A program made the translations under genes and the position numbers. A DNA stretch of 64,000 nucleotides from Polyangiales bacterium (GTDB lineage: Bacteria; Myxococcota_A; Polyangia; Polyangiales; Ga0077539): the NCBI GenBank assembly GCA_046351535.1, contig JAXLYG010000005.1:293334-357333 (forward strand), read 5' to 3'. The notes under the pieces were generated by a model that saw only the letters and a program-made list of their open reading frames with translations, was not told where the DNA came from and ran no database searches. Shown here one piece after another: positions 33,678 through 52,859 of the stretch; the stretch's first letter is position 1, and every line of letters starts with the position of its first letter.

Positions 33678-33680
33678 GCC

Positions 33681-34562: not shown

Positions 34563-34837
34563 TCTCGTCGCCTCGCGCCGCGCGCGGGTCGTCTCGTGCG
34601 CTGTGCCCACGCGACGACGCGCAGTCCGCGCGGCCCCTACGCCCGACGTCGCCCATCTGACGCCCCATGGCGCACGCCATCCACGCACTGCGCGCGTGTA
34701 TGCACCGGGTTCGTTCGCGCTCGCGGTGCCTGCGCGATGTCATATCGCCATGAATCGGGCGTCTCGCGTGCGCAGCGGCGGGCGCGCTCGGCGCGCGGAG
34801 GTGTGGCGCGGGGAATGCTCAATGGGCCTCTTCGAGG

Positions 34838-36949
34838 ATGCAGATGACGGACGCACGACGTTGGGCGCTTGGGGTGATGCTCGTCGCGATGGTGGGATGC
34901 GGCGCGGACGGCGCTCCTGGCGAGCGCGGCCCTGCCGGTCCGGCCGGTGACGCTGGCGCGCAGGGGCCTCAGGGCGAGCGGGGCCCGCAGGGCGATCGCG
35001 GTCCGCAGGGCGAGCCCGGCGACGCGGCGGTGACCGTGGTGTCGGGGAGCTTCCCCGCCGCGGGGCTCACGCTGAACGTCCTCGACGCGACGGTGAGCGC
35101 CTCGGGCGCGGTGTCGGTGCACTTCAACCTCCGCGACGGGCGCTCGCAGGCCCTCACGCCGCGCGACACCGACCTCCTCGGCTTCATGGTGAGCGAGGTG
35201 GTGCTCGACGCGATGGGTCAGCCGCTGCGCTACCGCGCGCTCACGACCTGCCCCGCCGACGCGCCCCACGCCGACGTCCGTCAGTCGTGCATGGAGTGGG
35301 CGATGCGGAGCGGCGCGCTCGCGAGCGACCGCCTCACGCAGCGCGCGGACCTCTCGTGGGACTTCCGTCTCGCGACGGTGGTGCCCGCGTCGACGACGCC
35401 CACGCGCACGCTCTCGATCACCGCGCAGGGTCTCCGCCCCGGTCTGTATGCGTCGGACCCCGCCTCGGTCTCGACGGCGGTCTTCGACTTCGTGCCCGGC
35501 GGCGGCACGCCCGTCTCCGTTCGCGTGGTCGACCCCGCGGGCTGCGAGGGCTGCCACCAGACCGTGCGCGCGCACGGCGGCACCCGCGTCAACGCGACGA
35601 TGTGCGTCCGCTGCCACACCGACGAGCTCTCCGACCCCGACACCGGGAACAGCCTCAGCTTCGGCGTGATGGTTCACAAGATCCACCGCGGCGAGCACCT
35701 GCCGAGCGTCGTGGGCGGCGCGCCCTATCGCATCGTGGGGTACCGCGGCGCGGTCTCGGACTTCAGCGACGTCGCGTACCCGCAGGACCTCCGCAACTGC
35801 GAGTCGTGTCACCGCCCCACCACCGCGGCGCCGGACTCCGTTCGCTTCGCGCAGCGCCCCGCGGAGCGCATCTGCACGAGCTGCCACGACCGCACGTACT
35901 TCAGCGACGGCGCCTTGCCCACGGGCTACACGCGCCACCCGCCGGGGATGGTCGACCCGACGCAGTGCACGACCTGCCACCGCGAGACGGGCGGGCTCAG
36001 CGGCATCCGCGACAAGCACATGCTCCCGTGGCGTCGCCCCGGCGCGCCCACGATCGCGGCCACCATCGAGTCGGTGACGGGGCTCATCCCGAACACCGCG
36101 CCCACGGTGGAGTTCACCCTCCGCTCGCGTGAGGGCACGGCGATCACCGACCTCTCGGCGCTCTCTCGCCTGGGTTTTCTCATCAACGGCCCGACGGCGC
36201 CCGCGTACTCGCTGCCCGGCGTGGTGCTCCAGGCCACGGGGACCGCGGCGGTGGGCGTGACGACGAACCTCGGCGGCGGACGCTACCGCTGGGTGGCGCC
36301 CATGTCGGCCGCGCTGCCTGCGACCGCCTCGGGGACCTGGGCCATCGGCATCGAGGCGCAGCGCACCGAGACCCTCGCGGACATGACCACGTTCCGTCAC
36401 GGCGCGACCAACCCCGTCGCGTACTCGTCGGTGGCGGGCGGGCCCGTCGTGCGACGCCGTCAGGTCGTCGAGATCGCGCGCTGCAACAACTGCCACGGCC
36501 GCCTCGCGCTGCACGGGAACAATCGCATCGACAACCCCGAGTACTGCGTGATGTGCCACACGCCCACGGCGACCGACGTCTCGCAGCGTCCGTCGACGGC
36601 GGGCGCGCCGCAGAGCATCGACTTCGCGAACATGGTCCACCGGATCCACACGGGCGCGAACCTCCCGAGCGTGGCCGAGGGGCGGCCGTACGTGATCTAT
36701 GGCTTCGGCGGGTCGCGCAACGACTTCTCGAACGTGCGCTTCCCGCAGTCGCTCCTGAACTGCTCGGCGTGCCACGCCGACGGGACCACGACGACGCCCT
36801 CGGCGCGCGCCTGCACGGGCTGCCACGACAGCACCGCGACGATCGCGCACGCGCAGATCAACACCACCTCCGCGGGCGTCGAGTCCTGCGCGGCGTGCCA
36901 CGGCGCGGGGCGGACCTTCTCCGTCGCGACGTCGCACCCGGCGCCGTGA
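34838..36949 (+). CDS. Decaheme c-type cytochrome lipoprotein (703 aa) with N-terminal collagen-like Gly-X-Y repeat; paralog of 30753..33677
   Basis: Lipobox VGCGADG. (GPAGPAGDAGAQGPQGERGPQGDRGPQGEPGD) is 11 consecutive Gly-X-Y triplets. Ten CxxCH motifs. Shares the ...CxxCH...HKIH...LPSV... blocks with the upstream cytochrome. Confidence 0.85.
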   Translation: MQMTDARRWALGVMLVAMVGCGADGAPGERGPAGPAGDAGAQGPQGERGPQGDRGPQGEPGDAAVTVVSGSFPAAGLTLNVLDATVSASGAVSVHFNLRDGRSQALTPRDTDLLGFMVSEVVLDAMGQPLRYRALTTCPADAPHADVRQSCMEWAMRSGALASDRLTQRADLSWDFRLATVVPASTTPTRTLSITAQGLRPGLYASDPASVSTAVFDFVPGGGTPVSVRVVDPAGCEGCHQTVRAHGGTRVNATMCVRCHTDELSDPDTGNSLSFGVMVHKIHRGEHLPSVVGGAPYRIVGYRGAVSDFSDVAYPQDLRNCESCHRPTTAAPDSVRFAQRPAERICTSCHDRTYFSDGALPTGYTRHPPGMVDPTQCTTCHRETGGLSGIRDKHMLPWRRPGAPTIAATIESVTGLIPNTAPTVEFTLRSREGTAITDLSALSRLGFLINGPTAPAYSLPGVVLQATGTAAVGVTTNLGGGRYRWVAPMSAALPATASGTWAIGIEAQRTETLADMTTFRHGATNPVAYSSVAGGPVVRRRQVVEIARCNNCHGRLALHGNNRIDNPEYCVMCHTPTATDVSQRPSTAGAPQSIDFANMVHRIHTGANLPSVAEGRPYVIYGFGGSRNDFSNVRFPQSLLNCSACHADGTTTTPSARACTGCHDSTATIAHAQINTTSAGVESCAACHGAGRTFSVATSHPAP

Positions 36950-36960
36950 AGGGGGATGCC

Positions 36961-37503
36961 GTGACGGTCTTCACCACCCACGCGCGCGTCGCAGCGGTCC
37001 TCGCGCTCTCCCTCACGGGCTGCGCCGATCGGCCTCGCGAGATGCGTCCCCCGCCCGACGGGGGCGCGGTGACGGTGATGCCGCGCGTGCCTCACCTCGC
37101 GACGTACCCGTGCATGCAGCGCTGCCACAACGACCGCGCGCCGAACCCCACGCCGCGGGAGATGCGCGAGTTCCACACGGGCCGCGTGCTCCGTCACGGT
37201 CCGACGATTCGCAACTGCGACTTCTGCCACCCCTCGGGCGAGCTCGATCACCTGAGGCTCATCAACGGCGACGCGGTCTCGTTCAACGAGTCGTATCGCC
37301 TCTGCGGCCAGTGCCACGGCGAGAAGCTCCGCGACTGGGAGCACGGCGTCCACGGCTCGCAGTCGGGCTCGTGGGCGGGCGCGAGGCTCCGCCGCGCGTG
37401 CACGGTCTGCCACGACCCGCACGCGCCGCAGCGCCCGCAGTTCGACCCCATCCCGCCGCCGCAACGAGACCGCGCATTCCCCGCTGGAGGACATCACCCG
37501 TGA
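36961..37503 (+). CDS. Small tetraheme cytochrome c lipoprotein (NrfB/c3-like)
   Basis: Lipobox LSLTGCAD. Heme motifs CMQRCH (CX3CH), CDFCH, CGQCH, CTVCH. The GTG start was chosen after a GGGGGA RBS; 36946 is an alternative. Confidence 0.7.
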   Translation: MTVFTTHARVAAVLALSLTGCADRPREMRPPPDGGAVTVMPRVPHLATYPCMQRCHNDRAPNPTPREMREFHTGRVLRHGPTIRNCDFCHPSGELDHLRLINGDAVSFNESYRLCGQCHGEKLRDWEHGVHGSQSGSWAGARLRRACTVCHDPHAPQRPQFDPIPPPQRDRAFPAGGHHP

Positions 37504-38435
37504 GCGAGCACGACGACCCCGAGATCGTAGAGGCGCTCGAGCGAGCGAAGGTCACCCGGCGACGCTTTCTCGCCACCGTGGGCGCCGCCTCGGCCGCCGC
37601 CTGCGCGTCGGGATGCAGCGGCGGCGGCAGCGCCCGCTCCGCGGCCTGGGAGGAGTTCTTTCAGCAGCACTACAAGCGCCTCTCCGACGAGGACAAGCGC
37701 GCCATCTTCGCGCGCCTCGAGGAGAAGGTGCGGCGCAGCCACGGCGTGCGGGTGCACATCTCCGACCCCGCGCCGATGCAGGGCGTCGAGTACGGCTACG
37801 CGCTCAACCTCTCGGCCTGCGTGGGCTGCCGCCGCTGCGAGTACGCGTGCGTGGCGGAGAACAACCAGTCGCGCGATCCCGAGATCCACTACATCAAGAT
37901 CCTTCAGATGGAGAAGGGCTCGATGGACGTCGAGCGCTCGGAGACCCAGTACGAGGGGCCCGTGCCGAGCGAGGGGCACTTCTACATGCCCGTGCAGTGC
38001 CACCAGTGCCGCGAGGCGCCCTGCGTGAAGGCCTGCCCGGTGAACGCCACGTGGACCGAGCCCGACGGGATCACCGTCGTCGACTACAACTGGTGCATCG
38101 GGTGCCGCTACTGCGAGGCCGCGTGCCCGTACTTCGCGCGGCGCTTCAACTTCGCCGAGGGCGACATCAGGCCCTCGGAGATCAACCCCGACCAGGGCTA
38201 CCTCTCGAACCGGCTGAGGCCCGCGGGCGTGGTCGAGAAGTGCACCTTCTGTCTCCACCGCGTGCGGCGGGGAGAGTATCCGGCGTGCCTCGAGGCCTGT
38301 CCGACGGGGGCGCGCAAGTTCGGCAACCTCCTCGATCCGACGAGCGAGGTCCGCCAGGTCATCGACACGAAGCGCGTCTACGTGCTCCACGAAGAGGCCG
38401 GCACGCTGCCGCGCTTCTATTACTTCTTCGACTGA
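37500..38435 (+). CDS. Tat-exported 4x[4Fe-4S] ferredoxin-type subunit (NrfC/PsrB/HybA-like)
   Basis: Twin-arginine signal (TRRRFLATVGAA). Four Cys clusters (CVGCRRCEYAC...CP; CHQCREAPCVKACP; CIGCRYCEAACP; CTFC...CLEACP). GTG start overlaps the upstream stop. Confidence 0.8.
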   Translation: MSEHDDPEIVEALERAKVTRRRFLATVGAASAAACASGCSGGGSARSAAWEEFFQQHYKRLSDEDKRAIFARLEEKVRRSHGVRVHISDPAPMQGVEYGYALNLSACVGCRRCEYACVAENNQSRDPEIHYIKILQMEKGSMDVERSETQYEGPVPSEGHFYMPVQCHQCREAPCVKACPVNATWTEPDGITVVDYNWCIGCRYCEAACPYFARRFNFAEGDIRPSEINPDQGYLSNRLRPAGVVEKCTFCLHRVRRGEYPACLEACPTGARKFGNLLDPTSEVRQVIDTKRVYVLHEEAGTLPRFYYFFD

Positions 38436-38448
38436 GGGGAATGGCGCG

Positions 38449-39699
38449 ATGGGCTCGGTGGCGATGCACGTGCGTGAGCTGTTCGCGTTTGTGAAGGCCT
38501 CGGCGGTCGAGGTCGCGCGCGGCAGCCGCGGGTACTACCGCTGGCTGGCGTTCCTGACGGCGCTGGTGGTCCTCGGCGGCCTCGCGTGGGCGCAGCAGCT
38601 CATGCGCGGGATGACCGTCACGGCGATGACCGACCAGGTCCCGTGGGGGGCCTACATCGCGAACTTCTCGTTCACCGTGGGCCTCGCGTCCGCGGCGCTC
38701 GTGATGGTCGCGCTGGCGTACATCCGTCACGACGAGCGGGCCGCCGAGCTCGTCATCGTGGGGCAGGTGATGGCCATCGCCGCGCTCACGATGGGGATGC
38801 TCTTCGTCGTCGTCGACATCGGCCGCCCCGACCGCGCGTGGCACCTCATGCCGGGCCTCGGGCGCTTCAACTTCCCCATCTCGATGCTGTCGTGGGACGT
38901 GGTCGTCCTCAACGGCTACCTGCTGCTGAACTTCTACCTCGCGACGTACACCCTCCTCGCGCGCTTCCGCGGTAGGCCCATCGACAAGAAGAAGTATCGC
39001 CCCGTGCTCGGCGCCGCGATGGTGTGGGCCGTGTCGATCCACGTGGTCGCCGCGTTCCTCTACTGCGGCCTCGCGGGCAGGCCCCACTGGCACGCCGCGG
39101 TGCTCGCGCCTCGCGTCGTCGCCTCGGCCTTCGGCAGCGGCCCCGCGATGCTCATCATCGTGCTCACGGTCATCCGCGACCGCATGAACGCCCCCGTGCG
39201 CGACGAGACCATCGGGCTCCTCCGCGGGATCGTCACGGCGGCCGTGTACGCCAACCTCTTCCTCCTCGGCGCCGAGCTCTTCACCGAGCTCTACGGCGGC
39301 TCGGTGCACTCGGCGCCGCTGCGCTACCTGCTCTTCGGGCTCCACGGTCACCACCTGCTCGTGCCGTACATGTGGCTCTCGATCGTGCTCGATCTCTTCT
39401 CGGCGACGGTGTTCTCGCTGCCGGGCCTCTTCAACCGCAAGCGCGTGCTCCTCACCGCGTGCGGCACGACCATCGTCGGCATGTGGATCGAGAAGGGCAT
39501 GGGCCACGTCATCCCGGGCTTCATTCCGAGCTCCCTCGGCGAGATCGTCGAGTACAGCCCGTCGCTCACCGAGACGCTCGTCTGCGCGGGCGTGTGGGCC
39601 GCGGGCGGGCTCGTGCTCACCCTGATGCTCAAGGTCGCGATCCCCGTCGAGTTCCACGGGCTCCGCATCGATCGCCCCGAGGCGGGAGGTGCGTCGTGA
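38449..39699 (+). CDS. NrfD/PsrC-family integral membrane quinol-interacting subunit
   Basis: 416 aa with about 10 TM helices. Its size and position after an NrfC-like gene are typical of NrfD/PsrC/ActC. Confidence 0.75.
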   Translation: MGSVAMHVRELFAFVKASAVEVARGSRGYYRWLAFLTALVVLGGLAWAQQLMRGMTVTAMTDQVPWGAYIANFSFTVGLASAALVMVALAYIRHDERAAELVIVGQVMAIAALTMGMLFVVVDIGRPDRAWHLMPGLGRFNFPISMLSWDVVVLNGYLLLNFYLATYTLLARFRGRPIDKKKYRPVLGAAMVWAVSIHVVAAFLYCGLAGRPHWHAAVLAPRVVASAFGSGPAMLIIVLTVIRDRMNAPVRDETIGLLRGIVTAAVYANLFLLGAELFTELYGGSVHSAPLRYLLFGLHGHHLLVPYMWLSIVLDLFSATVFSLPGLFNRKRVLLTACGTTIVGMWIEKGMGHVIPGFIPSSLGEIVEYSPSLTETLVCAGVWAAGGLVLTLMLKVAIPVEFHGLRIDRPEAGGAS

Positions 39700-40346
39700 G
39701 GCGCTTCTTCTTCGGGCTCGCGCTCGCGGTCACCGCGTCGTGCCAGAGCCCCACGCCCACGACGAACGTCGGCGCCGACACGCTCGACCTCGGGCTCACG
39801 CCCGCGGGCGCGGTCTCGGGCGAGCTCGACGGCGCGCGCTTCACGCTGCGTGAGGCGTGGTTCCGCGTCGATCGCAGGGAGCCGCGCGCGCGCGTCGACC
39901 TCATCCTCTCGGAGGGGCGCGCCACACGGCTCTGCGCCACGTCCGATCCGCCGCACGCGCGGCACATCCTCGTGCGCGTCCCGCGCGCGCAGTCGCTCGC
40001 CGTGGGGACCCTGCGTGGCGCGCCGGGCGCCGAGACGCCGGTCTCCGCGAACTTCGAGACCCACGCGTCGGACCACTGGGTCGGGCGACCCGGGAGCGTC
40101 GCCATCGCGATCGACACCTCGACGCCGACGCTCGTCACCGGGCGCATCCGCGCGTGCTTCGGCCCCGGCGCAGAGGGCTGCGTGGCGGGCGCCTTTCAGG
40201 CTCGTCAGTGCGTGACCGAGCTCGACCTCGACGGCCCGCTCACCGGGAACGTGCGCCCCTCGACGGACGACGCGGGCGCGCCCGCCGCCGCCCCCGCCGC
40301 AGGACACGCAGTGCCGCCGACCGAGCACGGAGGCGCGTCGCCGTGA
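39696..40346 (+). CDS. Lipoprotein of unknown function, within the cytochrome operon
   Basis: GTG start after a GGGAGG RBS, overlapping the upstream stop. Lipobox VTASCQS. Confidence 0.5.
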   Translation: MRRFFFGLALAVTASCQSPTPTTNVGADTLDLGLTPAGAVSGELDGARFTLREAWFRVDRREPRARVDLILSEGRATRLCATSDPPHARHILVRVPRAQSLAVGTLRGAPGAETPVSANFETHASDHWVGRPGSVAIAIDTSTPTLVTGRIRACFGPGAEGCVAGAFQARQCVTELDLDGPLTGNVRPSTDDAGAPAAAPAAGHAVPPTEHGGASP

Positions 40347-41926
40347 AGTCTCCAAGGCGTGAGAGAGGGGCTTCGAAGGGCGCTGCCGCGGCGCGCGTCG
40401 CGGGCGTCCTCGCGCTCACGTTGCAGGGCTGCGCCGACGTGCGCGAGACCCCCACGGTCGCCACGCCCGACTGGGAGCTCGACCTGCGCCCCGCGCTCAC
40501 CGCCGCCTGCGCCCGCTGCCACGACGGCGACACCCCCGCGGGTGACTGGGCCGTCAGCCGCTACACCGACGCCGTCTCGTGCTTCGAATCGCTCGACGGC
40601 GGCGTGGGCGTGAGCGTCGCCAATCGACTACGTCGCGCGCTCGGTCGCGACGACCACGCGTCGTACTTCAACGCCGCGCTCCGACGCAGCATCGACGCGT
40701 GGATCACTGGAGGCGCGAGGCCCCGCCGCGGATCGATGCACGAGGGCGGCTTCGTCGACCCGCGCTCCCCGTACTTTCACGGCCGACTGCTCCGCGCGTC
40801 TCGCTGGGCGCAGATGCTCGACGGCACCCGTCAGGACGCCTGCGGACGCTGTCACGACGGCACGCCCTCGCGTCCGAGCACCGTGCGAGAGGGCGCTCCC
40901 GCGGCGGGCGCGACGCCCTGCACCGCGTGTCACACCGCGACCGCGGGCGTGCTCGACTGCTCGACCTGCCACGGCGAGGGCGGACGCGTCTGGCCCGGAC
41001 CGACCTGCCGCATGCTCCCCGCCACGCACGGCGACGCGCACGCGCGACACGTGCTCCCGGGCGCGGCGCTGCTTCAGCCCCTCGCGTGCGCGACCTGTCA
41101 CCCCGCGCGCGACACCAACCTCGCGACGGGCTCGCACGGCGACGGCACCATCGACGTCCGCTTCGACACCGCGATCGTCGGCGCCACGGCGCGCTACGAC
41201 GCGGCCAGCGGGTCGTGCACCGTCTCGTGCCACAGCGCCGACGCGATGAGCCCCACGCCGCACTGGCGCACGCCGTCGTCGGGCCCCACCTGCGCGGGCT
41301 GTCACGGCGCCCCCCCGGCGGGCCACTGGACGCAGCCCTGCACCACCTGTCACTTCGAAGCCAACGCGACGGGTACCGCGCTCGCGCGCGCCGCGCTGCA
41401 CCTCAACGGCCGCGTCGACTTCGGCGACGGCACCAACAACTGCGGCTCGTGCCACGGCAGCAACGGCGACCCGTGGCCGCGCGACGCGACCCACCAGGCC
41501 CACCGCAACGCCAGCGTCACCACGCCGGTGACCTGCGACGAGTGCCACGAGGTCCCCGCCACGATCACCGCCGCGGGGCACCTCGACGATCGCGGCGCGG
41601 GCGACCTGCGCTTCGGCGCGAGGGCGACCGCGCGCGGCGCGAGGCCGTCGTACGTGAGCGGCTCGTGCGTCTCGGTCGCGTGTCACGGCGAGAACCTCAT
41701 CGGGCGCTCCGGCGTGCGCATCGCGTGGCGCGGCGGCTCCGTTGCGGGCAACTGCGTCGGATGTCACGGCGCGCCGCCCGCGCTGCCCCACTCGAACAAC
41801 GGCTCGTGTGAGCTCGTGCTGTGTCACGGCTCCGAGGTCGAGCGCGTCGACGGCGCGCTGCGGATCATCGCGTCTCAGCGCGCCTCGCACATCAACGGCG
41901 TCGTGACCGCGGGGGGTGCGCGATGA
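40343..41926 (+). CDS. 13-heme c-type cytochrome lipoprotein of the Geobacter CX(3-4)CH...CXXCH type
   Basis: Lipobox LTLQGCAD. Ten CxxCH motifs plus CTVSCH (CX3CH), CVSVACH and CELVLCH (CX4CH). GTGA overlap with the upstream gene. Confidence 0.8.
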   Translation: MKSPRRERGASKGAAAARVAGVLALTLQGCADVRETPTVATPDWELDLRPALTAACARCHDGDTPAGDWAVSRYTDAVSCFESLDGGVGVSVANRLRRALGRDDHASYFNAALRRSIDAWITGGARPRRGSMHEGGFVDPRSPYFHGRLLRASRWAQMLDGTRQDACGRCHDGTPSRPSTVREGAPAAGATPCTACHTATAGVLDCSTCHGEGGRVWPGPTCRMLPATHGDAHARHVLPGAALLQPLACATCHPARDTNLATGSHGDGTIDVRFDTAIVGATARYDAASGSCTVSCHSADAMSPTPHWRTPSSGPTCAGCHGAPPAGHWTQPCTTCHFEANATGTALARAALHLNGRVDFGDGTNNCGSCHGSNGDPWPRDATHQAHRNASVTTPVTCDECHEVPATITAAGHLDDRGAGDLRFGARATARGARPSYVSGSCVSVACHGENLIGRSGVRIAWRGGSVAGNCVGCHGAPPALPHSNNGSCELVLCHGSEVERVDGALRIIASQRASHINGVVTAGGAR

Positions 41927-43260
41927 GGCCCGCCGTCGTCATCGTGGCGCTCGTGCTCGTCGTCGAGCGCGGCGACGCCCTCGCGCAGTCGCACGCCGAG
42001 TCGCGCGACGAGTCGCACGTCAGCGTGCGCATCGACAGCGTGTTCCGCGGCGTCCCGCGCTACGTGCTCACCGCGGCCGACGGGCAGGCGAGCGCCGCCG
42101 ACCGATACTGGCGCACCGTCACGCTCGCGCCGATCATGGCGCGCGCAACGCTCGACGCGCGCGGGCTCTCGAACGGTCACCTCGAGGCGCACCTCAACGC
42201 CTGGGGCGCCGTCGACCTCGCCGCGGCGGACCCGCAGGCGTACGCGGCGGGCGACCTCGCCGTCGCGTGGGCGCGCTACGCGGCGGGGCCGTGGGGCGTG
42301 TGGGCCGGGCGACGCTTTCTCCCCTGGGGCTCGCCCGGCGGCGTGCACATCGACGGGATCGGCGGAGAGGTCATCGCGGGCGGCTTCAACGCCGAGGTGA
42401 TGGTCGGACGCCCCGTGACCCCCGCGTACGGCGCGCTGGTCGGCGCGCAGCCCTCGTTCGACGGCGTGACCGTGGCCTACGGCGCGCGCGTCGGGTGGAT
42501 GCAGGCTGGCACCTTCGCGGCCTCGGCGTCGTACCTCGAGCGCTGGGCCTACGGCGTCGCGGGCGTGCGCGCCCTCTCGCTCGACGCGTCGTTCACGCCG
42601 ACGGAGCGCCTCGACCTCCGCGCGGGGATCGCCTTCGACGCGGCCGGCGGCGGCGTCACGCAGGCGAGCGCCGACGTCGACTGGACGCCGGCGTCGTGGG
42701 GGCTCGTCGGCGCGGGCTACGCGCACGTCGACCCGTCGAGGCTCATCCCGAAATGGTCGATCTTGAGCGTGTTCGCGACGCAGGTCTTCGATGAGATGAG
42801 GGCGTCGTTCACGTGGCGTCCCTCGCGCGTGGTGTCGCTGCGCCTCGAGGGCGCCGGGCAGCGCTATGACATCCCCGGTTCGAACGAGGACGCGCGCTGG
42901 GGCTCCCGCGTCGAGGCGATGCTGCGGGTGACCTCTCGCGATCGCTCGCGGCAGGGGACGCTCTCGGCGAGCCGCCGCGATGACGGCGTGCGACCGCTCA
43001 CGCTCGTGCGCATCGCGGGCATGTGGACGCTGCCTCGCAACATCGGGGTCGCGCTCGAAGGCGCCGCGGCGCTCGACGACGACGACCCGAGCTCGCCGCG
43101 CACGTCGCTCTACGCGCGCGCCGCGGTCGACGTCCCCCTCGGACACGGCTGGCGCGTCGGCGCCGCCATCGACGGCGTGCGGTCGCCCATCGCGCTCAGC
43201 GAGCTGCGCGGGCTCGCCCACGGGACCTGGACCTTCGAGAGCCGCGGAGGCGCGCGATGA
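41923..43260 (+). CDS. Putative outer-membrane beta-barrel (porin-like) protein embedded between cytochrome genes
   Basis: Signal peptide (VALVLVVERGDALAQS). Gly/Ala/aromatic-rich with an alternating amphipathic pattern. No heme motif. ATGA overlaps on both sides. Its position matches Pcc-type porin genes. Confidence 0.45.
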   Translation: MRPAVVIVALVLVVERGDALAQSHAESRDESHVSVRIDSVFRGVPRYVLTAADGQASAADRYWRTVTLAPIMARATLDARGLSNGHLEAHLNAWGAVDLAAADPQAYAAGDLAVAWARYAAGPWGVWAGRRFLPWGSPGGVHIDGIGGEVIAGGFNAEVMVGRPVTPAYGALVGAQPSFDGVTVAYGARVGWMQAGTFAASASYLERWAYGVAGVRALSLDASFTPTERLDLRAGIAFDAAGGGVTQASADVDWTPASWGLVGAGYAHVDPSRLIPKWSILSVFATQVFDEMRASFTWRPSRVVSLRLEGAGQRYDIPGSNEDARWGSRVEAMLRVTSRDRSRQGTLSASRRDDGVRPLTLVRIAGMWTLPRNIGVALEGAAALDDDDPSSPRTSLYARAAVDVPLGHGWRVGAAIDGVRSPIALSELRGLAHGTWTFESRGGAR

Positions 43261-44321
43261 GCCGCCTCTTCGTCGTCCTCGCCGCGCTCCTCTTCGCCGT
43301 GAGCTGTCAGCGCGGAGACACCGAGCGGGTGCGCCCCGACGCGATCCGCTTCTCGCACGGCAAGCACCTGCGCGCGGGCGCGACGTGCCCGCAGTGCCAC
43401 GCGCGCGTCGTCGACCCCGCCGCGGACACCGCCCGCACGCGCAACCTCGCGCTCCCCGCGGAGGCGGTATGCACGGGCTGCCACACGCGCCCCGAGGAGC
43501 GCGCGTGCGCCTACTGCCACGCCGAGCCGCGCAACCCTCGCACGTACCTCCGCACCGACCGCGAGCTCAACTTCTCGCACGCGACGCACGTCGCCCGCGA
43601 GCGCGGCGGCTGCGTGTCGTGCCACGGCCTGCGCGCCGACACGTCGACGGTGCGGCCCTTCGAGCCCGAGATCCCGACGATGGCCGGGTGCGCCACGCGC
43701 TGCCACGACGCGGACATGCGCGCGATGAACTGCACCAAGTGTCACCGCAGCCTCGACCGCTACAGCATGGAGGACCTCGCCTTCGTGCGGCACCCCGCGG
43801 GCTTCGCGCGGCGACACGGGACGCAGGCGCGCGCCGAGAGCAACCTCTGCTCGCAGTGTCACGAGCCCAACTTCTGCGCGCGGTGCCACAACCCGAGCGC
43901 GGGCGCGCCGCTGGCCGACCTGGAGCTCATGTCGGTCGCGCGAGATTTCGTGCACCGCGGTGACTTCCAGGCGAGGCACGCCGACGAGGCGCGGCTCACG
44001 CAGAACACCTGCACGCGCTGCCACGCCGTCGAGACCTGCGACGGGTGCCACCGCACGAGCGGCATCGGCGGAGGCGTCGGCCCGAGGGCCACGCACCCCG
44101 TCGGCTGGCTCGACCCCAACTCGCCGCGCAGCCACGCGCGTGAGGCGCGGCGGAACATCCTCGCGTGCGCGTCGTGTCACGAGACCGACGCCGCGCAGGT
44201 CTGCACGCCCTGCCACCGCGAGGGCGGCGGCGCGGGCAACCCCCACCCGCCCGGATTCGCGGCGGGCTTCGATCGAACGCAGCACTCGGTCTGCCTCGTG
44301 TGCCATACACACGCGCCTTGA
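43257..44321 (+). CDS. 13-heme c-type cytochrome lipoprotein
   Basis: Lipobox LFAVSCQR. Twelve CxxCH motifs plus CATRCH (CX3CH). ATGA overlap with the upstream gene. Confidence 0.85.
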   Translation: MSRLFVVLAALLFAVSCQRGDTERVRPDAIRFSHGKHLRAGATCPQCHARVVDPAADTARTRNLALPAEAVCTGCHTRPEERACAYCHAEPRNPRTYLRTDRELNFSHATHVARERGGCVSCHGLRADTSTVRPFEPEIPTMAGCATRCHDADMRAMNCTKCHRSLDRYSMEDLAFVRHPAGFARRHGTQARAESNLCSQCHEPNFCARCHNPSAGAPLADLELMSVARDFVHRGDFQARHADEARLTQNTCTRCHAVETCDGCHRTSGIGGGVGPRATHPVGWLDPNSPRSHAREARRNILACASCHETDAAQVCTPCHREGGGAGNPHPPGFAAGFDRTQHSVCLVCHTHAP

Positions 44322-44346
44322 GACTCCGACGGAGACGTGACTTCCG

Positions 44347-44802
44347 ATGAGCGATCAACAGCGACCCCCGGACCCGAAGCGTCGAAGGCTCCTCGACGGC
44401 GCGCTCGTGGTCGCCTCCTGCGCGGCGGGCGTGTCGGCGGCGTTGCCCGCCGTGCGCTTCGCCACACCCCCGTCGGATGGGGCGACGGGAGCCTCCGCGT
44501 CGGTGCGCCGCACTGAGGTGCTCGCCGCGGGGTCGAAGCTCGTCGAGGTCGCGGGCGACGTGGTGCTCGTGGTCGCGGTGGGCGGCGAGCTCCGCGCCTT
44601 CTCCGCGCGCTGCACGCACCTCGGGTGCACGGTGCGCTACGCCCGCGCCACGGGCGAGATCGAGTGTCCGTGTCACGGCGGCCGCTTCGCCGTCGACGGG
44701 CGGGTGATCGCGGGGCCGCCTCCCGCGCCGCTCCACGAGTACGAGGTGACCGTCGCGGGCGACGACGTCGTGATCGAACGGAGGCGCGCATGGACCGGGT
44801 GA
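44347..44802 (+). CDS. Rieske [2Fe-2S] protein with Tat signal
   Basis: RRRLLDGALVVA twin-arginine signal. CTHLGC ... CPCHGG Rieske boxes. Confidence 0.9.
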   Translation: MSDQQRPPDPKRRRLLDGALVVASCAAGVSAALPAVRFATPPSDGATGASASVRRTEVLAAGSKLVEVAGDVVLVVAVGGELRAFSARCTHLGCTVRYARATGEIECPCHGGRFAVDGRVIAGPPPAPLHEYEVTVAGDDVVIERRRAWTG

Positions 44803-45815
44803 ACCCCACCGACTCGCTCGCGTCGCGCTACCCCACCGACGCCCTGCGGCTCCGCCTCACGGAGGCCCGCGTCGACGGCTCGCGCATGGCGCTGACGCTC
44901 CTGGCCGCGCTCTCCGCGGCGCTCGTCGCCGTCGAGTTCGCGACGGGCGCGCTGCTCGCGCTCTACTACCGCCCCGAGCGCGAGGGCGCCCGCGCGTCGG
45001 TGCAGTTCATCATCTCGCGCGTGGAGTTCGGCGAGCTCGTCCGATCGATCCACGTGTGGGGCTCGCACGCGCTGCTCGCGTCGCTCTTCGCGCTCGTGGG
45101 CGTGGCGCTCTTCGCGGGCGTCCACCGCCGACCGGGCGAGGTCGCCTGGTGCGCGCTGGTCACGGCGTGGTTCCTCGGGCTCGCGTCGGCCTTCACGGGC
45201 GCGATGCTCCCGTGGACGGCGCGCAGCGCGCTCGACGCGACGCTCGCCTCGGAGGCCACGTCGCGGCTGCCGATCCTCGGACCGGGCCTCCGCGCGATCG
45301 TGTTCGGCGCGCCGTCGCAGGGCGTCGACCTCGTGCGCGCGCAGGGGATCCACCTCGGCGCGCTCCCGTCGCTCTGGGGCATCGTGCTGCTCGTGGCGGT
45401 GTTCCACGCGCTCGGTCGCCTCGTGCAGGAGCCGCCGCGCGAGGGGACGCGGGTCTTCCCCGACGTCATGTTCCGCGCCGCGGCCCTCAGCGTCACGGCC
45501 TTCGGCGCCCTCCTCGCGCTCGCCTCGTGGAGGCCCGCGGGCCTCGCCGAGGCGCCGTCGCCCACGCACGCGCTCACGGGCGACCTCCGCCCGACCTGGT
45601 ACCTCGCGCCCATCGACGGTCTGCTCCGCGCCGCGCCGCCTACGATCGTAGGCATCCCCGGCGTGACCGTGCTGGTCTCGCTCGCCGCGGTGGGGGCGCT
45701 CGCCGCGCTCTCGCTGCCCCTCGTCGACCGTGGAGGCGGACGCCTCGGTCAGCGGATCGGACTCGCGCTGTATGCGCTCCTGCTGGGGGTGATGACCTTT
45801 GCGCTCCTTCGCTGA
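44790..45815 (+). CDS. Cytochrome b (bc/b6f-type, fused N- and C-terminal domains)
   Basis: ALYYRPERE...IHVWGSHALLASLF matches the His-ligand helix pattern. About 8 TM helices. Start overlaps the Rieske stop by 13 nt. Confidence 0.75.
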   Translation: MDRVNPTDSLASRYPTDALRLRLTEARVDGSRMALTLLAALSAALVAVEFATGALLALYYRPEREGARASVQFIISRVEFGELVRSIHVWGSHALLASLFALVGVALFAGVHRRPGEVAWCALVTAWFLGLASAFTGAMLPWTARSALDATLASEATSRLPILGPGLRAIVFGAPSQGVDLVRAQGIHLGALPSLWGIVLLVAVFHALGRLVQEPPREGTRVFPDVMFRAAALSVTAFGALLALASWRPAGLAEAPSPTHALTGDLRPTWYLAPIDGLLRAAPPTIVGIPGVTVLVSLAAVGALAALSLPLVDRGGGRLGQRIGLALYALLLGVMTFALLR

Positions 45816-47031
45816 CATCGCCCTCGCGCTCGCGGTCGCGCTCGCATCGACGGCCGTCGCCGCCGAGGAGCACTGCGGCCAGTGCCACGCCACCCTCCGC
45901 GAGGCGCGCCTGCGCACGCCCGCCGAGGCCCTTCGAGAGAGCGTCCACGACGCGCCTCGCGTGGGCTGCTCGGGCTGCCACGGCGGTCGCGCCTCGGAGG
46001 CCACCACGGCCGCCCACGACGCCGCCGCGGGCTTCGTCGCGCGCCCCGACCTCGCCGTCACCTCCGAGCGCTGCGGCGCCTGCCACGCCGACGCGCGCTT
46101 CATCCGCCGCGCGAGCGCGACGCTCCAGGTCGATCAGCTCGCGCTCTTTCGCGCCGACGCGCACGGCCACGCCGTCGCCGACGGCCGCGTGCGCGCGCCC
46201 TCGTGCGCCTCGTGTCACGGCGCCCACGACATCCGTCACGTCGCCGACCCCTCGTCGCCCGTAAACCCGCTGCACGTCGCAGAGACCTGCGGACGCTGCC
46301 ACGAAGGACCCACCGCGATCCGCGGCGCGCGCCCCGCGAACGAGCCTCCCTCCGCGTGGAGGGCGAGCGTCCACGGCCGGGCGCGCGTCGAGCGCGGCGA
46401 CGAGAACGCCCCCACCTGCGCGAGCTGCCACGGCGCGCACGGCGAGTTCCGCGAAGCGGGCGGACCCGACGCGCGCTGCGGGAGCTGTCACCGCGACGAG
46501 GCCGAGGCCTTCACGCGCAGCCCCCACGCGGCGCCCTTCGCGCGCCTCGGCTTCTCGGGGTGCGTGCAGTGCCACGGGTCGCACGGCGTCGGCGAGGCCG
46601 GCGGCGCGCTCCTCGGGAGCGGCTCGAGCAACGTCTGCGGTCGTTGCCACGACGGCGCGCAGAAGGCCCTCGAGACGGCCTCACGCCTCGACGCCGCCCG
46701 CGCCGGCGCGCTCCGCGCCGTCGACGAAGCGGCGGACCTCATGCGCCGCGCCGATCGCGCGGGGCTCTCGATTCCAGAAGGCGCTTCGAAGCTCGAAGAG
46801 GCCCGCGCGGCGCAGCAGCGCCTCGACGTGGCCCTCCACACGCTCGACGAGCGCGTGGTCGCGGGCGCGGTGCGCGAGGTGACGAGCGCCGCGACGGCCT
46901 CGCAGCGCGCGGCGCGCCGGACCCTCGGCCTCCGTGACCGTCAGCGTCGGGCGTGGCTCCCCGTGGTGGGCCTGCTCTTCGCGCTCGGAGCCCTGCTGGC
47001 GCTCCGCTCTCGCAACGGGGGCGACCGGTGA
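45799..47031 (+). CDS. Nonaheme c-type cytochrome with signal peptide and C-terminal TM anchor
   Basis: Nine CxxCH motifs. C-terminal WLPVVGLLFALGALLAL. A TTG start is inferred because there is no in-frame ATG; it overlaps cytochrome b by 17 nt. Confidence 0.75.
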   Translation: MRSFADIALALAVALASTAVAAEEHCGQCHATLREARLRTPAEALRESVHDAPRVGCSGCHGGRASEATTAAHDAAAGFVARPDLAVTSERCGACHADARFIRRASATLQVDQLALFRADAHGHAVADGRVRAPSCASCHGAHDIRHVADPSSPVNPLHVAETCGRCHEGPTAIRGARPANEPPSAWRASVHGRARVERGDENAPTCASCHGAHGEFREAGGPDARCGSCHRDEAEAFTRSPHAAPFARLGFSGCVQCHGSHGVGEAGGALLGSGSSNVCGRCHDGAQKALETASRLDAARAGALRAVDEAADLMRRADRAGLSIPEGASKLEEARAAQQRLDVALHTLDERVVAGAVREVTSAATASQRAARRTLGLRDRQRRAWLPVVGLLFALGALLALRSRNGGDR

Positions 47032-49301
47032 ACGAGGAGCCGTCGACCGCGCGCGCACGCCCGAGGCTGCGTCCGTCATGGGGCGTCCTCGCGGCCGTGG
47101 CGCTCGCGCTCGTGGCGCTCTTCGCGGGCGCCGAGCGCGCCACCCGCTCGGATGACTTCTGCGCGTCGTGCCACGCGAGCTCGCGCGCGCACCTCCGCGG
47201 TCATCAGGGCACCCGCTGCGACGCGTGCCACGCCGCGAAGACCGCGGAGCGCCTCGGGCTCCTCGCGCGCTCGATCACGCACACCGCCGCGAGCCGCCAC
47301 CACGCCGCCGTCGACCCGACGACCTGCGTCTCGTGCCACCAGGACCGCGCGGGCTCGTGGCGCAGGCTGATGTCGACCGAGGGGCACGCGTCGCACACGA
47401 CGGGCGCGCGCAAGACCGACTGCGTGCGCTGCCACGGGCCCTCGCTCCACGACAAGCCCGACCCCGGCGCGCGCTGCGTCGCGTGTCACGCGAGCACGCC
47501 CATGCGCTCCGAGCCGCGCGACGAGGGCTCGTGCGTGCGCTGCCACGCCTTCGGCGCGCGCCCCGCGGCGCTCGCCCGCCAGGTGCCCTCGGCCCACGGG
47601 CCCCGCGTCGACGGATCGCGCATCCACGGCGCCGTCGACTGCCGGAGCTGCCACGACCCGCACCGCGACACCAACGACCGCGGCACGCACGACGGCAACG
47701 ACTGCGTGCGCTGCCACCGCGGGAGCATCGCGTCCGAGGTGGCCGCCGGGCCGCGCGGTCACCGCGAGTGCCTCGGGTGTCACTCCGCGCACGCCGAGAG
47801 AGGCCGCGCGGGCATCGACTGCGGACGCTGCCACGAGCCGCCTCCGCCGCGCTCGACGCACCAGGCGGAGCCGTCGCGCAGGCAGCCCGCGGCCCGGGTG
47901 ACGCCGTGGGTGACCTTCGCGTCTGGAACGACCACCGCGGTCCCCGACGCGCGCACCCCCAACGCCCCCACCGCGCGCCCCGCGCACACCGACTGGACGC
48001 TCACGGGCGTCTGCTCGACCTGCCACCGCCCGCACACGTGGACGGCGCACACCGACGACTGCCGCACGTGCCACGCCGGCCCCTCGACGTCGCTCCCGCG
48101 CGACGGTCGAGGCCACAACGAGTGCGTCGGCTGCCACGACCCGCACGCGCCCGTCCCCAACGCAGACACCTGCGCGACGTGCCACCAGAACATCGCGGCC
48201 GCGACCCATCAGGCGCCGCCCACGCCGCACCAGGACTGCCTCTCGTGTCACGCGCAGCACGACCCGCGGCGCCCCACGGCGTCGACGTGCGAGCACTGCC
48301 ACGCAGCGCCCACGGCGGGCGTCGCGCACGGCCCCGACGAGCACCGCAACTGCCTGTCGTGCCACGAGCAGCACGGTCCGCCCGCGGCCAACGCCGAGCG
48401 CTGCGCGCGCTGCCACGCGGCCGAGGTGTCGTCGACCGCGACGCGCGCGACGTCGCTCTCGGGCGTGCACCAGCGCTGCGAGAGCTGCCACACGCCGCAC
48501 GAGTTCGAACGCGCCAACGCGCGGACCGCGTGCGTCCACTGCCACGAGCGCGCCGCCGCGCCCACGTCGAACCACCGCGGGACGTGTACGCAGTGCCACG
48601 CGCCCCACGCGAACATCAACGCCCGCGGGACCGACTGCGCGACGTGCCACGCGGGCGTCCGCGCGGTGGGCTCGGAGCGTCCCGGCTCGGCGCACGCGCG
48701 CTGTCAGTCGTGTCACACGCCGCACACGGCCGCGCGCGGCGCCCTCCAGCGGTGCCCGACGTGTCACGCGCGGCAGGTCTCCGTCGCGCGCACGTGGCCC
48801 GCGGAGTCTCCGCACGCGGGCCGCTGCGAGTCGTGCCACGACATGCACGGACCGACGCCGCGGGTGGCCTGCGCGAGCTGCCACGCGCCGCAGAACAACG
48901 CGTCGCACATGGGACGCCACACCGACTGCGTGGGCTGCCACGCGCCGCACCAGGACCGCCCCTCCGGCGGCGCCTCGGCGTGGTGGAACCGCTGCGCCAC
49001 CTGCCACACGCAGCAGGCGACCGCGGCGCAGACCGGCGCCGTCGCGCACCGGGCGTGTTCGAACTGCCACCAGCGCCCGGGCTTGCGGGCGCCGACCTGC
49101 GCGACCTGCCACGCCCAGGCCGCGGGCACGCTGCTCCACGGTCACCCCGCGCACGCCAACTGCGCCGGGTGCCACCCCCCGCACGGCACTGGAATCCCCG
49201 AGCGGGCGCAGTGCGTCGCGTGTCACCAGAACCGGGCGCAGCACTTCCCCGATGCGCCGCGTTGCCAGTCGTGCCATCCCTTCGGCACGCAGGGACGATG
49301 A
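47028..49301 (+). CDS. Giant (~33-heme) c-type cytochrome with N-terminal signal-anchor
   Basis: 33 CxxCH motifs counted across 757 aa, almost all in a C-x2-CH-x(8-20)-H periodicity. N-terminal VLAAVALALVALFAGA. GTGA overlap with the upstream gene. Confidence 0.85.
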   Translation: MNEEPSTARARPRLRPSWGVLAAVALALVALFAGAERATRSDDFCASCHASSRAHLRGHQGTRCDACHAAKTAERLGLLARSITHTAASRHHAAVDPTTCVSCHQDRAGSWRRLMSTEGHASHTTGARKTDCVRCHGPSLHDKPDPGARCVACHASTPMRSEPRDEGSCVRCHAFGARPAALARQVPSAHGPRVDGSRIHGAVDCRSCHDPHRDTNDRGTHDGNDCVRCHRGSIASEVAAGPRGHRECLGCHSAHAERGRAGIDCGRCHEPPPPRSTHQAEPSRRQPAARVTPWVTFASGTTTAVPDARTPNAPTARPAHTDWTLTGVCSTCHRPHTWTAHTDDCRTCHAGPSTSLPRDGRGHNECVGCHDPHAPVPNADTCATCHQNIAAATHQAPPTPHQDCLSCHAQHDPRRPTASTCEHCHAAPTAGVAHGPDEHRNCLSCHEQHGPPAANAERCARCHAAEVSSTATRATSLSGVHQRCESCHTPHEFERANARTACVHCHERAAAPTSNHRGTCTQCHAPHANINARGTDCATCHAGVRAVGSERPGSAHARCQSCHTPHTAARGALQRCPTCHARQVSVARTWPAESPHAGRCESCHDMHGPTPRVACASCHAPQNNASHMGRHTDCVGCHAPHQDRPSGGASAWWNRCATCHTQQATAAQTGAVAHRACSNCHQRPGLRAPTCATCHAQAAGTLLHGHPAHANCAGCHPPHGTGIPERAQCVACHQNRAQHFPDAPRCQSCHPFGTQGR

Positions 49302-49579
49302 AACTCGACGCGGACACTCGCTCGTTACAGTTCTCCTCCGAAGAAGAGCTTCAGCGCTTTCACGACGACCTCACGGAGCTCATCCGCGTGGCCACCGTGA
49401 GCGTCACGAAGAACGTCGAGGTCGAGGTCGCCACCGAGCGCGCGCGGGAGCTCATGCGCCGCCACGCCACGGTGCTGCGCTGCCTCAACCAGCTCCGGCG
49501 CGTGCTCCCGCGCCACGCCTCGGGCGTCGACGACCACAAGGTCGCCCCCGAGCGAGGCGACCCCCCCGACGAGACCTGA
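49298..49579 (+). CDS. Small acidic hypothetical protein (93 aa), last gene of the cytochrome operon
   Basis: ATGA overlap with the cytochrome stop. Coherent, non-Arg-rich composition. Confidence 0.4.
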   Translation: MKLDADTRSLQFSSEEELQRFHDDLTELIRVATVSVTKNVEVEVATERARELMRRHATVLRCLNQLRRVLPRHASGVDDHKVAPERGDPPDET

Positions 49580-49588
49580 TCGCCTCGC

Positions 49589-52693: not shown

Positions 52694-52859
52694 GCCGCGA
52701 CCGTAGAGCGTCTCAGCGAACAAGTGAATTGTGGCGAAACCACCACAAGGAGAGGCGTTTGGTGCACACGACGTGAGGCGCGAAAGACGCTCTCCACGCC
52801 GCTGTGCAATTGTCGTTTGCCGACGTGCACGCGGCCGCACATCGCGCGTGAGCGAGCGC

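What the first reader, a model, noticed from the sequence alone, without database searches (positions are those of the whole stretch)
40343..44321. Lipoprotein cytochrome / beta-barrel / lipoprotein cytochrome trio resembling a porin-cytochrome (Pcc) trans-outer-membrane conduit
A 13-heme lipoprotein cytochrome (40343..41926) and a second 13-heme lipoprotein cytochrome (43257..44321) flank a 445-aa heme-free, Gly/Ala/aromatic-rich secreted protein. ATGA overlaps on both sides imply 1:1:1 co-translation. This is the gene grammar of Geobacter OmaB-OmbB-OmcB-type complexes.
Basis: inference. Interest (0 to 1): 0.65.

Follow-up and report, generated by a model that had tools for sequence, protein, structure and literature searches.

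The report
Barrel-and-cytochrome outer-membrane electron conduit
Three overlapping genes of an uncultured myxobacterium encode a hollow 22-strand outer-membrane barrel flanked by two lipid-anchored 13-haem cytochromes, most likely a wire carrying respiratory electrons through the outer membrane. It is an unannotated variant of a known kind of system, not a new principle.

Summary
Gene A (40343-41926) encodes a 527-aa lipoprotein with 13 haem motifs (10 CxxCH, 1 CxxxCH, 2 CxxxxCH). Gene B (41923-43260) encodes a 445-aa protein with no Cys and no haem motif. Gene C (43257-44321) encodes a 354-aa lipoprotein with 13 motifs (12 CxxCH, 1 CxxxCH). Both junctions are ATGA overlaps.

The trio is conserved in all 15 related Myxococcota MAG loci, with identical haem counts and lipobox cysteines. 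It recurs in relatives where B is only about 26% identical. B and C are always adjacent, usually with a 4-nt overlap, whereas A moves or is missing. This suggests C is the barrel-inserted cytochrome and A the surface one.

The trio sits in a 14-gene, 92-haem-motif cluster. That cluster also holds two MtrC/OmcA-type decahaems, a NrfD/FeS/tetrahaem quinol module, a Rieske/cytochrome b module and a 33-haem membrane-anchored cytochrome.

B belongs to no Pfam or NCBIfam family, and it is not MtrB/PioB. Homology to the Geobacter Pcc/Ext proteins could not be tested. Verdict: new variant of a known kind, moderately interesting, function inferred only.

The parts
40343..41926 (+). Gene A: 527-aa lipoprotein cytochrome c with 13 haem motifs (10 CxxCH, 1 CxxxCH, 2 CxxxxCH). 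Proposed surface-side cytochrome of the conduit.
   Evidence: Motifs and GTG start behind GGAGG. TIGR01904 CxxxxCH/CxxCH domain, E 1.9e-21, 75.6 bits against a cutoff of 27. Cytochrome c7 domain. Lipobox Cys conserved. 10+1+2 count in 14 of 15 orthologues. Its position relative to B-C varies in distant relatives.
41923..43260 (+). Gene B: 445-aa haem-free, Cys-free secreted protein predicted to form a plug-less 22-strand outer-membrane beta-barrel.
43257..44321 (+). Gene C: 354-aa lipoprotein cytochrome c with 13 haem motifs (12 CxxCH, 1 CxxxCH), about 27 aa per haem. Proposed barrel-inserted, periplasm-side cytochrome.
   Evidence: Motifs. 12 of the 13 haem sites and 11 further His are invariant in 50 homologues; the third CxxCH (C84-H88) is not on the invariant list. 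12+1 count in 15 of 15 loci. Lipobox Cys conserved. Always directly downstream of B, with a 4-nt overlap in the six loci where gene calls were read.
39696..40346 (+). N5: 216-aa haem-free lipoprotein of no known family, with a GTGA overlap onto gene A. Always precedes A in the Myxococcota cluster. Possible fourth subunit or assembly factor; role unknown.
   Evidence: No Pfam, NCBIfam or PDB match. Conserved position and lipobox Cys in the 14 loci that include this region.
30753..33677 (+). Context: 974-aa lipoprotein, MtrC/OmcA-like decahaem with an N-terminal (Gly-Thr-Asn)n repeat. Candidate extracellular terminal cytochrome.
   Evidence: PF22113 4.9e-37, OmcA-like_N. 10 CxxCH and lipobox AIAAC.
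33681..34562 (+). Context: PpiC-type peptidyl-prolyl isomerase lipoprotein (Lys at +2). Possible folding helper.
   Evidence: PF13145 2.1e-13. N-terminus. The same gene follows the 974-aa cytochrome in L001.
34838..36949 (+). Context: 703-aa OmcA/MtrC-family decahaem lipoprotein with a 13-triplet collagen-like Gly-X-Y stalk at its N-terminus.
   Evidence: TIGR03507 349.9 bits against a cutoff of 209.3. PF22113 3.7e-45 and Collagen PF01391. Gly-X-Y run. Homologues lie next to the trio in L002 and L021.
36946..39699 (+). Context: inner-membrane quinol module. It comprises a small lipoprotein cytochrome (3 CxxCH + 1 CxxxCH; 36946-37503), a Tat-signal 4Fe-4S protein (37500-38435) and a NrfD-type membrane subunit (38449-39699).
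   Evidence: Fer4_11 and NrfD Pfam hits. DsrO-like 7.3e-47 and DsrP-like 1e-104. Conserved order.
44347..45815 (+). Context: Rieske [2Fe-2S] protein (44347-44802) and cytochrome b (44790-45815), a second quinol-oxidising module.
   Evidence: PF00355 4.1e-15 and PF00033 1.4e-18. CTHLGC...CPCHG motif. Absent from the two most divergent loci, L017 and L018.
45799..49301 (+). Context: a 9-haem cytochrome with a C-terminal membrane anchor (45799-47031) and a 33-haem cytochrome with an N-terminal anchor (47028-49301). Candidate periplasm-spanning wire.
   Evidence: Haem counts. 33 motifs conserved in 12 of 14 loci. Pfam c3/c7 hits.

Best explanation
A, B and C form a porin-cytochrome-type electron conduit through the outer membrane of an uncultured Myxococcota bacterium. 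B is a hollow 22-strand barrel with no plug and only short loops. C is a very haem-dense 13-haem cytochrome tethered by a lipid to the inner leaflet, and it is threaded into the barrel from the periplasmic side. A is a 13-haem CxxxxCH-type lipoprotein that caps the barrel on the cell surface and passes electrons to the two MtrC/OmcA-type decahaems encoded upstream. Electrons would be supplied by the co-operonic quinol-oxidising modules (NrfD/FeS/tetrahaem and Rieske/cytochrome b) through the membrane-anchored 9-haem and 33-haem cytochromes. Shown: gene structure, haem motifs, lipoboxes, barrel fold prediction, conservation and synteny. Inferred: complex formation, which cytochrome lies on which side, and the direction of flow. 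I favour outward flow, meaning reduction of extracellular metal oxides, humics or a partner, at roughly 60:40.
For: B is a confident barrel model whose neighbours are all outer-membrane barrels. Its sequence shows transmembrane beta periodicity and canonical turn/loop alternation. It has no plug domain, and its longest loop is 18 aa. An open 22-strand pore would be leaky unless a partner filled it (inference). B-C adjacency holds in all 15 Myxococcota loci and in distant relatives with B at about 26% identity, and a 4-nt overlap is seen wherever gene calls were read. A moves instead: it is upstream in the window, downstream in L024, on the opposite strand in L020 and absent in L025. This is the same pattern as in Geobacter Pcc, where the porin and periplasmic cytochrome co-evolve and the outer cytochrome does not (PMC4245776). 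Haem counts of 13+13 are conserved, atypical motifs included. Atypical CX3-4CH motifs are a hallmark of Pcc outer-membrane cytochromes (PMC4245776), and A carries three plus the TIGR01904 domain. The neighbours supply every other step of an envelope-spanning chain, and 8 of the 11 junctions within 34838-49301 are overlaps. In L019/L020 the same module sits beside a different quinol module (Mo-pterin/FeS/NrfD), and in L021 beside another collagen-stalked MtrC-like decahaem. Both fit a portable conduit.
Against: Nothing is experimental and all the organisms are MAGs. No complex model could be made. The AF2 model of C is poor (pLDDT 68) and matched nothing. C is a predicted lipoprotein and has a conserved CxxxCH motif, whereas known barrel-inserted cytochromes (MtrA, OmaB, ExtA) are soluble and lack atypical motifs. 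The A/C orientation could therefore be the reverse. The barrel has 22 strands against 26 in MtrB, so the fit of a 13-haem protein is assumed rather than shown. No sequence link to any validated conduit was found. The Rieske/cytochrome b module is also compatible with inward (oxidative) electron flow.
Confidence: 0.72

Rival explanations
1. The physical conduit is the same but it runs inward. The complex would take electrons from extracellular Fe(II), Mn(II), reduced humics, a cathode or a partner cell and feed them to the quinone pool or an oxidase. The Rieske/cytochrome b complex would work 'uphill', as in iron oxidisers.
For: A Rieske/cytochrome b module lies inside the operon. Two different quinone-interacting modules would suit a split downhill/uphill flow (inference). 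Conduits such as MtoAB/PioAB are structurally like MtrAB but oxidative (PMC4245776). The carriers are not known anaerobic metal reducers.
Against: Two OmcA/MtrC-family decahaems are co-encoded, and this family is typical of reducers and usually missing from oxidisers. The Rieske/cytochrome b genes are dispensable, being absent in L017 and L018. No Cyc2, carbon-fixation or oxidase genes were seen in the cluster.
Confidence: 0.2
2. B is an ordinary solute or substrate channel, for example for a chelated metal, polysulfide or organic acceptor. A and C would be periplasm-facing outer-membrane lipoprotein reductases that act on what enters, with no electron transfer through the barrel.
Against: A 22-strand barrel with no plug and loops of 18 aa or fewer would be an unusually wide, unselective hole. 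The strict, translationally coupled B-C pairing over deep divergence argues for a physical complex. Surface-type MtrC/OmcA cytochromes in the same operon need an electron supply across the membrane.
Confidence: 0.05
3. B is a dedicated translocon or assembly factor that moves the lipoprotein cytochromes (A, C and the MtrC-like proteins) to the cell surface, functionally like Slam, and is not a permanent part of an electron path.
For: Five lipoproteins (N5, A, C and both decahaems) are co-encoded, some of which must reach the surface. A role of porin-cytochrome barrels in cytochrome secretion has been discussed but remains speculative (PMC12307469).
Against: B has no periplasmic domain and no similarity to DUF560/Slam or any translocon family. 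Two-gene B-C clusters with a non-lipoprotein C exist (L025). A 1:1 pairing with one specific cytochrome fits a stable complex better.
Confidence: 0.03

Closest known systems
Geobacter sulfurreducens Pcc complex OmbB-OmaB-OmcB (and OmbC-OmaC-OmcC)
   Same: [quoted passage not shown] The genes are clustered. The barrel is smaller than MtrB (PMC4245776; PMC4282303 abstract).
   Different: The order here is cytochrome-barrel-cytochrome. Both cytochromes are lipoproteins with 13 haem motifs each, against 8 and 12. The putative inner cytochrome has an atypical CxxxCH motif, said never to occur in Pcc periplasmic cytochromes. A fourth haem-free lipoprotein is present.
Geobacter Ext clusters (ExtABCD, ExtEFG, ExtHIJKL)
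   Same: They are defined by the same three elements. The barrels have 18-21 predicted strands, the periplasmic cytochromes are dodecahaems, and the outer lipoproteins are variable and exchangeable while the barrel and periplasmic partner are conserved (PMC6148476). This mirrors the mobile gene A and fixed B-C pair seen here. FeGenie-type ExtABC hits have been reported in lake Myxococcota MAGs (bioRxiv 10.1101/2022.03.26.485925).
   Different: The Ext periplasmic cytochromes are soluble. None is reported inside a single operon with two quinol modules and MtrC/OmcA homologues. Homology of B and C to ExtB and ExtA was not tested.
Shewanella MtrCAB (structure 6R2Q)
   Different: B is not an MtrB/PioB family member: there is no PF11854 or TIGR03509 hit for it or for 64 relatives. 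It has 22 strands, not 26. C is not an MtrA/DmsE family member and has 13 haems plus a lipid anchor.
Anaeromyxobacter two-gene pcc clusters (e.g. Adeh_3392 and its porin; Pcc group IV)
   Same: They come from the same phylum. A porin-like protein is paired with a 338-344-aa cytochrome bearing 12-14 haem motifs (PMC4245776). That is close to C (354 aa, 13 motifs) and to the two-gene B-C pair in L025.
   Different: No outer cytochrome is encoded there. No Anaeromyxobacter protein appeared among the named homologues of B or C, so homology is a lead from the literature, not a result.

Membership tests
Porin-cytochrome (Pcc/Ext-type) outer-membrane conduit cluster, architectural definition (PMC6148476; PMC4245776) | Integral outer-membrane beta-barrel protein, 18-22 predicted strands | tested here: met
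Porin-cytochrome (Pcc/Ext-type) outer-membrane conduit cluster, architectural definition (PMC6148476; PMC4245776) | Multihaem periplasmic c-type cytochrome encoded next to the barrel and co-evolving with it | tested here: inconclusive
   C is multihaem (13 motifs) and always adjacent to B, with a 4-nt overlap wherever gene calls were read. However, it carries a conserved lipobox rather than a plain signal peptide. Its side of the membrane cannot be determined in silico here.
Porin-cytochrome (Pcc/Ext-type) outer-membrane conduit cluster, architectural definition (PMC6148476; PMC4245776) | [quoted passage not shown] | tested here: met
   A has a conserved lipobox Cys, 13 haem motifs and the TIGR01904 domain. 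Two lipoprotein MtrC/OmcA decahaems are also present.
Porin-cytochrome (Pcc/Ext-type) outer-membrane conduit cluster, architectural definition (PMC6148476; PMC4245776) | Demonstrated electron transfer across a membrane by the complex | not testable with these tools
   This needs purification and proteoliposome or genetic assays.
Geobacter OmbB / ExtB / ExtE / ExtI and OmaB / ExtA sequence families | Detectable sequence or profile homology to the Geobacter proteins | not testable with these tools
   Pfam and NCBIfam have no HMM for them, and no reference sequences were reachable. None of the named homologues of B or C is from Geobacter.
MtrB/PioB decahaem-associated outer-membrane protein family (PF11854, TIGR03509) | Match to the family HMM; 26-strand barrel | tested here: not met
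   There is no hit for B at E<=0.1 in Pfam or NCBIfam. None of 64 family members hits it, with only weak LptD in 3 and OMP_b-brl in 1. The model has 22 strands.
MtrA/DmsE decahaem family (TIGR03508) | Match to the family HMM; 10 haems; soluble periplasmic protein | tested here: not met
   C has no TIGR03508 hit, has 13 motifs and has a lipobox.
CxxxxCH/CxxCH-domain c-type cytochromes (TIGR01904 / PF09698) | Repeated CxxxxCH...CxxCH units scoring above the curated cutoff | tested here: met
   A scores 75.6 bits against a cutoff of 27, E 1.9e-21, over 3 stretches. The A-like partners in L001, L002, L019 and L021 also carry PF09698.

The most novel reading that the evidence does not exclude
B, C and A may define an independent and widespread lineage of trans-outer-membrane conduits. 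B's profile family has at least 782 clusters at 50% identity, and all named members are 'hypothetical'. Under this reading the lineage is unrelated to MtrAB and to the Geobacter Omb/Ext barrels. Both the inner and outer 13-haem cytochromes are lipid-anchored, and the conduit serves as the docking station for collagen-stalked MtrC/OmcA-type decahaems. In these Myxococcota it would be hard-wired in one operon to two alternative quinol oxidoreductases and a 33-haem periplasmic wire. That would make it a complete 92-haem-motif inner-membrane-to-surface pathway in a phylum better known for aerobic predation.
Probability: 0.3. Interest if true: 0.7.

Novelty: new variant of a known kind. Interest (0 to 1): 0.5.

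Why it matters
Only the Mtr conduit has a solved structure, and none of the three proteins here has a solved relative. Geobacter-type porin-cytochrome complexes are defined by architecture rather than homology, so each well-delimited new family widens the rules used to recognise extracellular electron transfer in genomes.

This family is invisible to Pfam and NCBIfam, yet it is large and strictly cytochrome-linked. It could therefore be turned into a marker HMM for surveys that currently score such Myxococcota clusters only as 'novel'.

It also shows MtrC/OmcA-type surface cytochromes paired with a non-Mtr barrel. That bears on how modular these systems are. The organisation offers a compact operon, roughly 14.5-18.5 kb, that encodes a whole envelope-spanning pathway and could be tested by heterologous expression.

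Ecologically, it suggests that uncultured Polyangiales-like myxobacteria from groundwater, lakes and activated sludge exchange electrons with minerals, humics or partners.

Tried and rejected
- **Structure of C.** The AF2 model from a 50-sequence alignment was poor (pLDDT 68, pTM 0.46). Foldseek against the PDB gave no meaningful match, so there is no structural assignment of C to MtrA-like folds.
- **AlphaFold DB search.** A fold search of B against afdb50, which would have named Geobacter or Anaeromyxobacter neighbours, was not available.
- **Word-indexed profile search with A2.** It added few members and no names. A cluster look-up of 10 distant B relatives returned only 'hypothetical protein' or nothing.
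- **PDB sequence searches.** B's profile gave only LptD at E about 0.6-1. C gave weak c7/ACIII ActA-type matches. A gave c7 at E 0.3. N5 gave nothing.
- **Promoter and terminator scan of 30000-49900.** It found 0 promoter-like sites and 5 terminator-like sites against 2.9 expected, which is uninformative in this 72-77% GC DNA.
- **tblastn of B and C against 72,556 plasmids.** No match.
- **Literature searches.** Searches for this cluster in Myxococcota found only generic surveys.
- **Rejected readings.** B as a soluble periplasmic protein. B as MtrB/PioB. The ORFs as high-GC frame artefacts, given conservation of motifs and order across 15 loci.
Full report
**1. Observation**

The three ORFs exist as described, on the + strand of a 72-77% GC window.
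- **A (40343-41926)** starts at GTG, 7 nt after a GGAGG site, and is 527 aa. It has 10 CxxCH, one CxxxCH and two CxxxxCH motifs.
- **B (41923-43260)** is 445 aa with no Cys and no haem motif.
- **C (43257-44321)** is 354 aa with 12 CxxCH and one CxxxCH.

'13 haems' is therefore right for both cytochromes only if atypical motifs count. Both junctions are ATGA overlaps, and the preceding gene overlaps A by GTGA.

Comparison with orthologues shows this is not chance.
- The counts 10+1+2 (14 of 15 loci) and 12+1 (15 of 15) are kept down to about 40% identity.
- Twelve of the 13 haem sites of C, plus 11 other His, are invariant across 50 homologues. The third CxxCH (C84-H88) is not on the invariant list.
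- The lipobox cysteines of A, C and the upstream protein N5 are conserved in every locus. B instead keeps an Ala-x-Ala|Gln signal-peptidase-I site.

**2. What B is**

B has no Pfam or NCBIfam family. Its 37 word-indexed homologues are all 'hypothetical'.

AlphaFold2 on a 28-sequence alignment gave pLDDT 84 and pTM 0.74. The model is an all-beta protein of 22 antiparallel strands with no plug domain.

Evidence independent of the model agrees. Within the predicted strands, hydrophobicity alternates with period 2 (z = 4.2 against within-strand shuffles). The connections alternate between turns of 5 residues or fewer and loops of 2-18 residues, which is the canonical topology with both termini in the periplasm.

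With an assumed shear number of about 24, standard barrel geometry gives a Cα diameter near 40 Å. This is my calculation, not a measurement. A pore that wide, with no plug and no long loops, must be filled by something. That is the logic of the porin-cytochrome model.

**3. Conservation and the unit of selection**

A full HMMER profile search found 782 representative clusters (50% identity) at E<=1e-3, and 213 at E<=1e-30. The family is large but unnamed.

All are from Myxococcota MAGs: Polyangiales, 'Myxococcaceae', Sandaracinaceae and 'Deltaproteobacteria' from groundwater, lakes and sludge. The best, 'Myxococcota bacterium MAG_1', is 97% identical in B.

tblastn shows the same gene order in every locus long enough to judge: small cytochrome, FeS, NrfD, N5, A, B, C, Rieske, cytochrome b, 9-haem, 33-haem. 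An OmcA/MtrC-type decahaem lies nearby. Rieske/cytochrome b is missing in the two most divergent loci, and NrfD is missing in two (gene calls).

More distant relatives, with B at about 26% identity, still have the module:
- **L021:** A'(13 motifs, lipoprotein)-B'-C'(13 CxxCH, lipoprotein), followed by a collagen-stalked MtrC-like decahaem.
- **L020:** A' on the opposite strand, then B'-C', next to a Mo-pterin/FeS/NrfD module.
- **L024 (Polyangiaceae):** order B-C-A.
- **L025:** only B-C, with a non-lipoprotein C.

B and C are always adjacent, with a 4-nt overlap wherever gene calls were read. A is mobile or dispensable. Shi et al. reported the same asymmetry for Geobacter-type Pcc clusters: the porin and periplasmic cytochrome co-evolve, while the outer cytochrome does not (PMC4245776).

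**4. Most likely mechanism**

I propose that C is the barrel-inserted cytochrome. It has about 27 residues per haem and is lipid-tethered to the inner leaflet.

A would be the surface cytochrome. It matches TIGR01904 at 75.6 bits against a cutoff of 27, and it has three atypical motifs of the kind so far seen only in Pcc outer-membrane cytochromes.

The surroundings supply the rest of a path from 30753 to 49301:
- two MtrC/OmcA-type decahaem lipoproteins, one matching TIGR03507 at 349.9 bits
- a PpiC isomerase lipoprotein
- a tetrahaem/FeS/NrfD quinol module, DsrO- and DsrP-like
- a Rieske/cytochrome b pair
- a 9-haem and a 33-haem membrane-anchored cytochrome

These make 14 genes. Eight of the 11 junctions within 34838-49301 are overlaps, and the cluster holds 92 haem motifs in all.

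Gene content, motifs, fold prediction and synteny are shown. Complex formation, orientation and direction are inferred. I favour outward flow because of the MtrC/OmcA proteins and because the Rieske/cytochrome b genes are dispensable. An oxidative role remains a serious rival.

**5. Comparison with known systems**

By the architectural criteria used for Geobacter (barrel, adjacent multihaem cytochrome, redox lipoprotein; PMC6148476) this is a porin-cytochrome conduit cluster.

By sequence it is not an Mtr system. B and 64 relatives do not hit MtrB_PioB, and C does not hit the MtrA/DmsE model.

Homology to OmbB/ExtB/ExtE/ExtI, or to the Anaeromyxobacter porin and 12-14-haem pair (338-344 aa, close to C in size), could not be tested. 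No reference sequences or HMMs were reachable.

It differs from every described conduit in five ways:
- both cytochromes are lipoproteins with 13 motifs each
- the presumed inner cytochrome has an atypical CxxxCH site
- there is an extra haem-free lipoprotein (N5)
- MtrC/OmcA homologues are paired with a non-Mtr barrel
- the conduit is fused into one operon with two quinol modules and a 33-haem cytochrome

No relative of A, B or C has a solved structure. The searchable literature mentions Myxococcota only as rich in 'novel' multihaem clusters.

**6. Verdict**

It is a new variant of a known kind. The interest is moderate: the barrel family is large and unannotated, and the operon is unusually complete, but the principle is established and nothing here is experimental.

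Noticed in passing
window 34838-36949 (+); also L002 3264-5390 and L021 4687-7077: An OmcA/MtrC-family decahaem lipoprotein carries 13 collagen-like Gly-X-Y triplets directly after its lipobox (Pfam Collagen 1.7e-7). The same arrangement recurs next to distant copies of the trio. This suggests a trimeric stalk that holds the cytochrome away from the cell surface.
   Followed up: partly
window 47028-49301 (+): A 757-aa cytochrome with 33 CxxCH motifs (about 23 aa per haem) has an N-terminal membrane anchor. The count of 33 is conserved in 12 of 14 orthologues. It is long enough in principle to bridge the periplasm.
   Followed up: partly
window 36946-39699 and 44347-45815 (+): One operon holds two different quinol-interacting modules: tetrahaem/FeS/NrfD and Rieske/cytochrome b. 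The Rieske/cytochrome b pair is absent in L017 and L018, and NrfD is absent in L002 and L018. They may be alternative entry points for acceptors of different potential.
   Followed up: partly
window 30753-33677 (+): A 974-aa MtrC/OmcA-like decahaem lipoprotein has an N-terminal (Gly-Thr-Asn)n run and repeated 'GTSCT(V/I)S' units before the haem domains. The repeats are of unknown role, possibly a linker or glycosylation region.
   Followed up: no
window 39696-40346 (+): A 216-aa lipoprotein with five Cys and no family or PDB match always precedes gene A with an overlapping stop/start. It may be a fourth conduit subunit or an assembly factor. No structure prediction slot was left to examine it.
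   Followed up: partly
window 33681-34562 (+): A PpiC-type prolyl isomerase lipoprotein with Lys at +2 lies between the two MtrC-like genes and is conserved in L001. From my own knowledge, Lys at +2 is the reported inner-membrane retention signal in Myxococcus. It is possibly a dedicated folding helper for the cytochromes.
   Followed up: no
window 51383-53023 (-): An NHL-repeat beta-propeller protein is encoded just downstream of the cluster on the opposite strand, beside a sodium:solute symporter. From my own recollection, NHL-repeat proteins accompany cytochromes in the Desulfovibrio ferrophilus 'DFE' clusters. No link was tested here.
   Followed up: no
L019/L020 8001-10318 and flanks: A distant copy of the barrel and 13-haem pair occurs in about 60% GC DNA. 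It sits next to H-NOX/histidine-kinase signalling genes and an alternative-complex-III-like Mo-pterin/FeS/NrfD cluster. The conduit module therefore combines with different inner-membrane partners, and possibly occurs in another lineage.
   Followed up: partly
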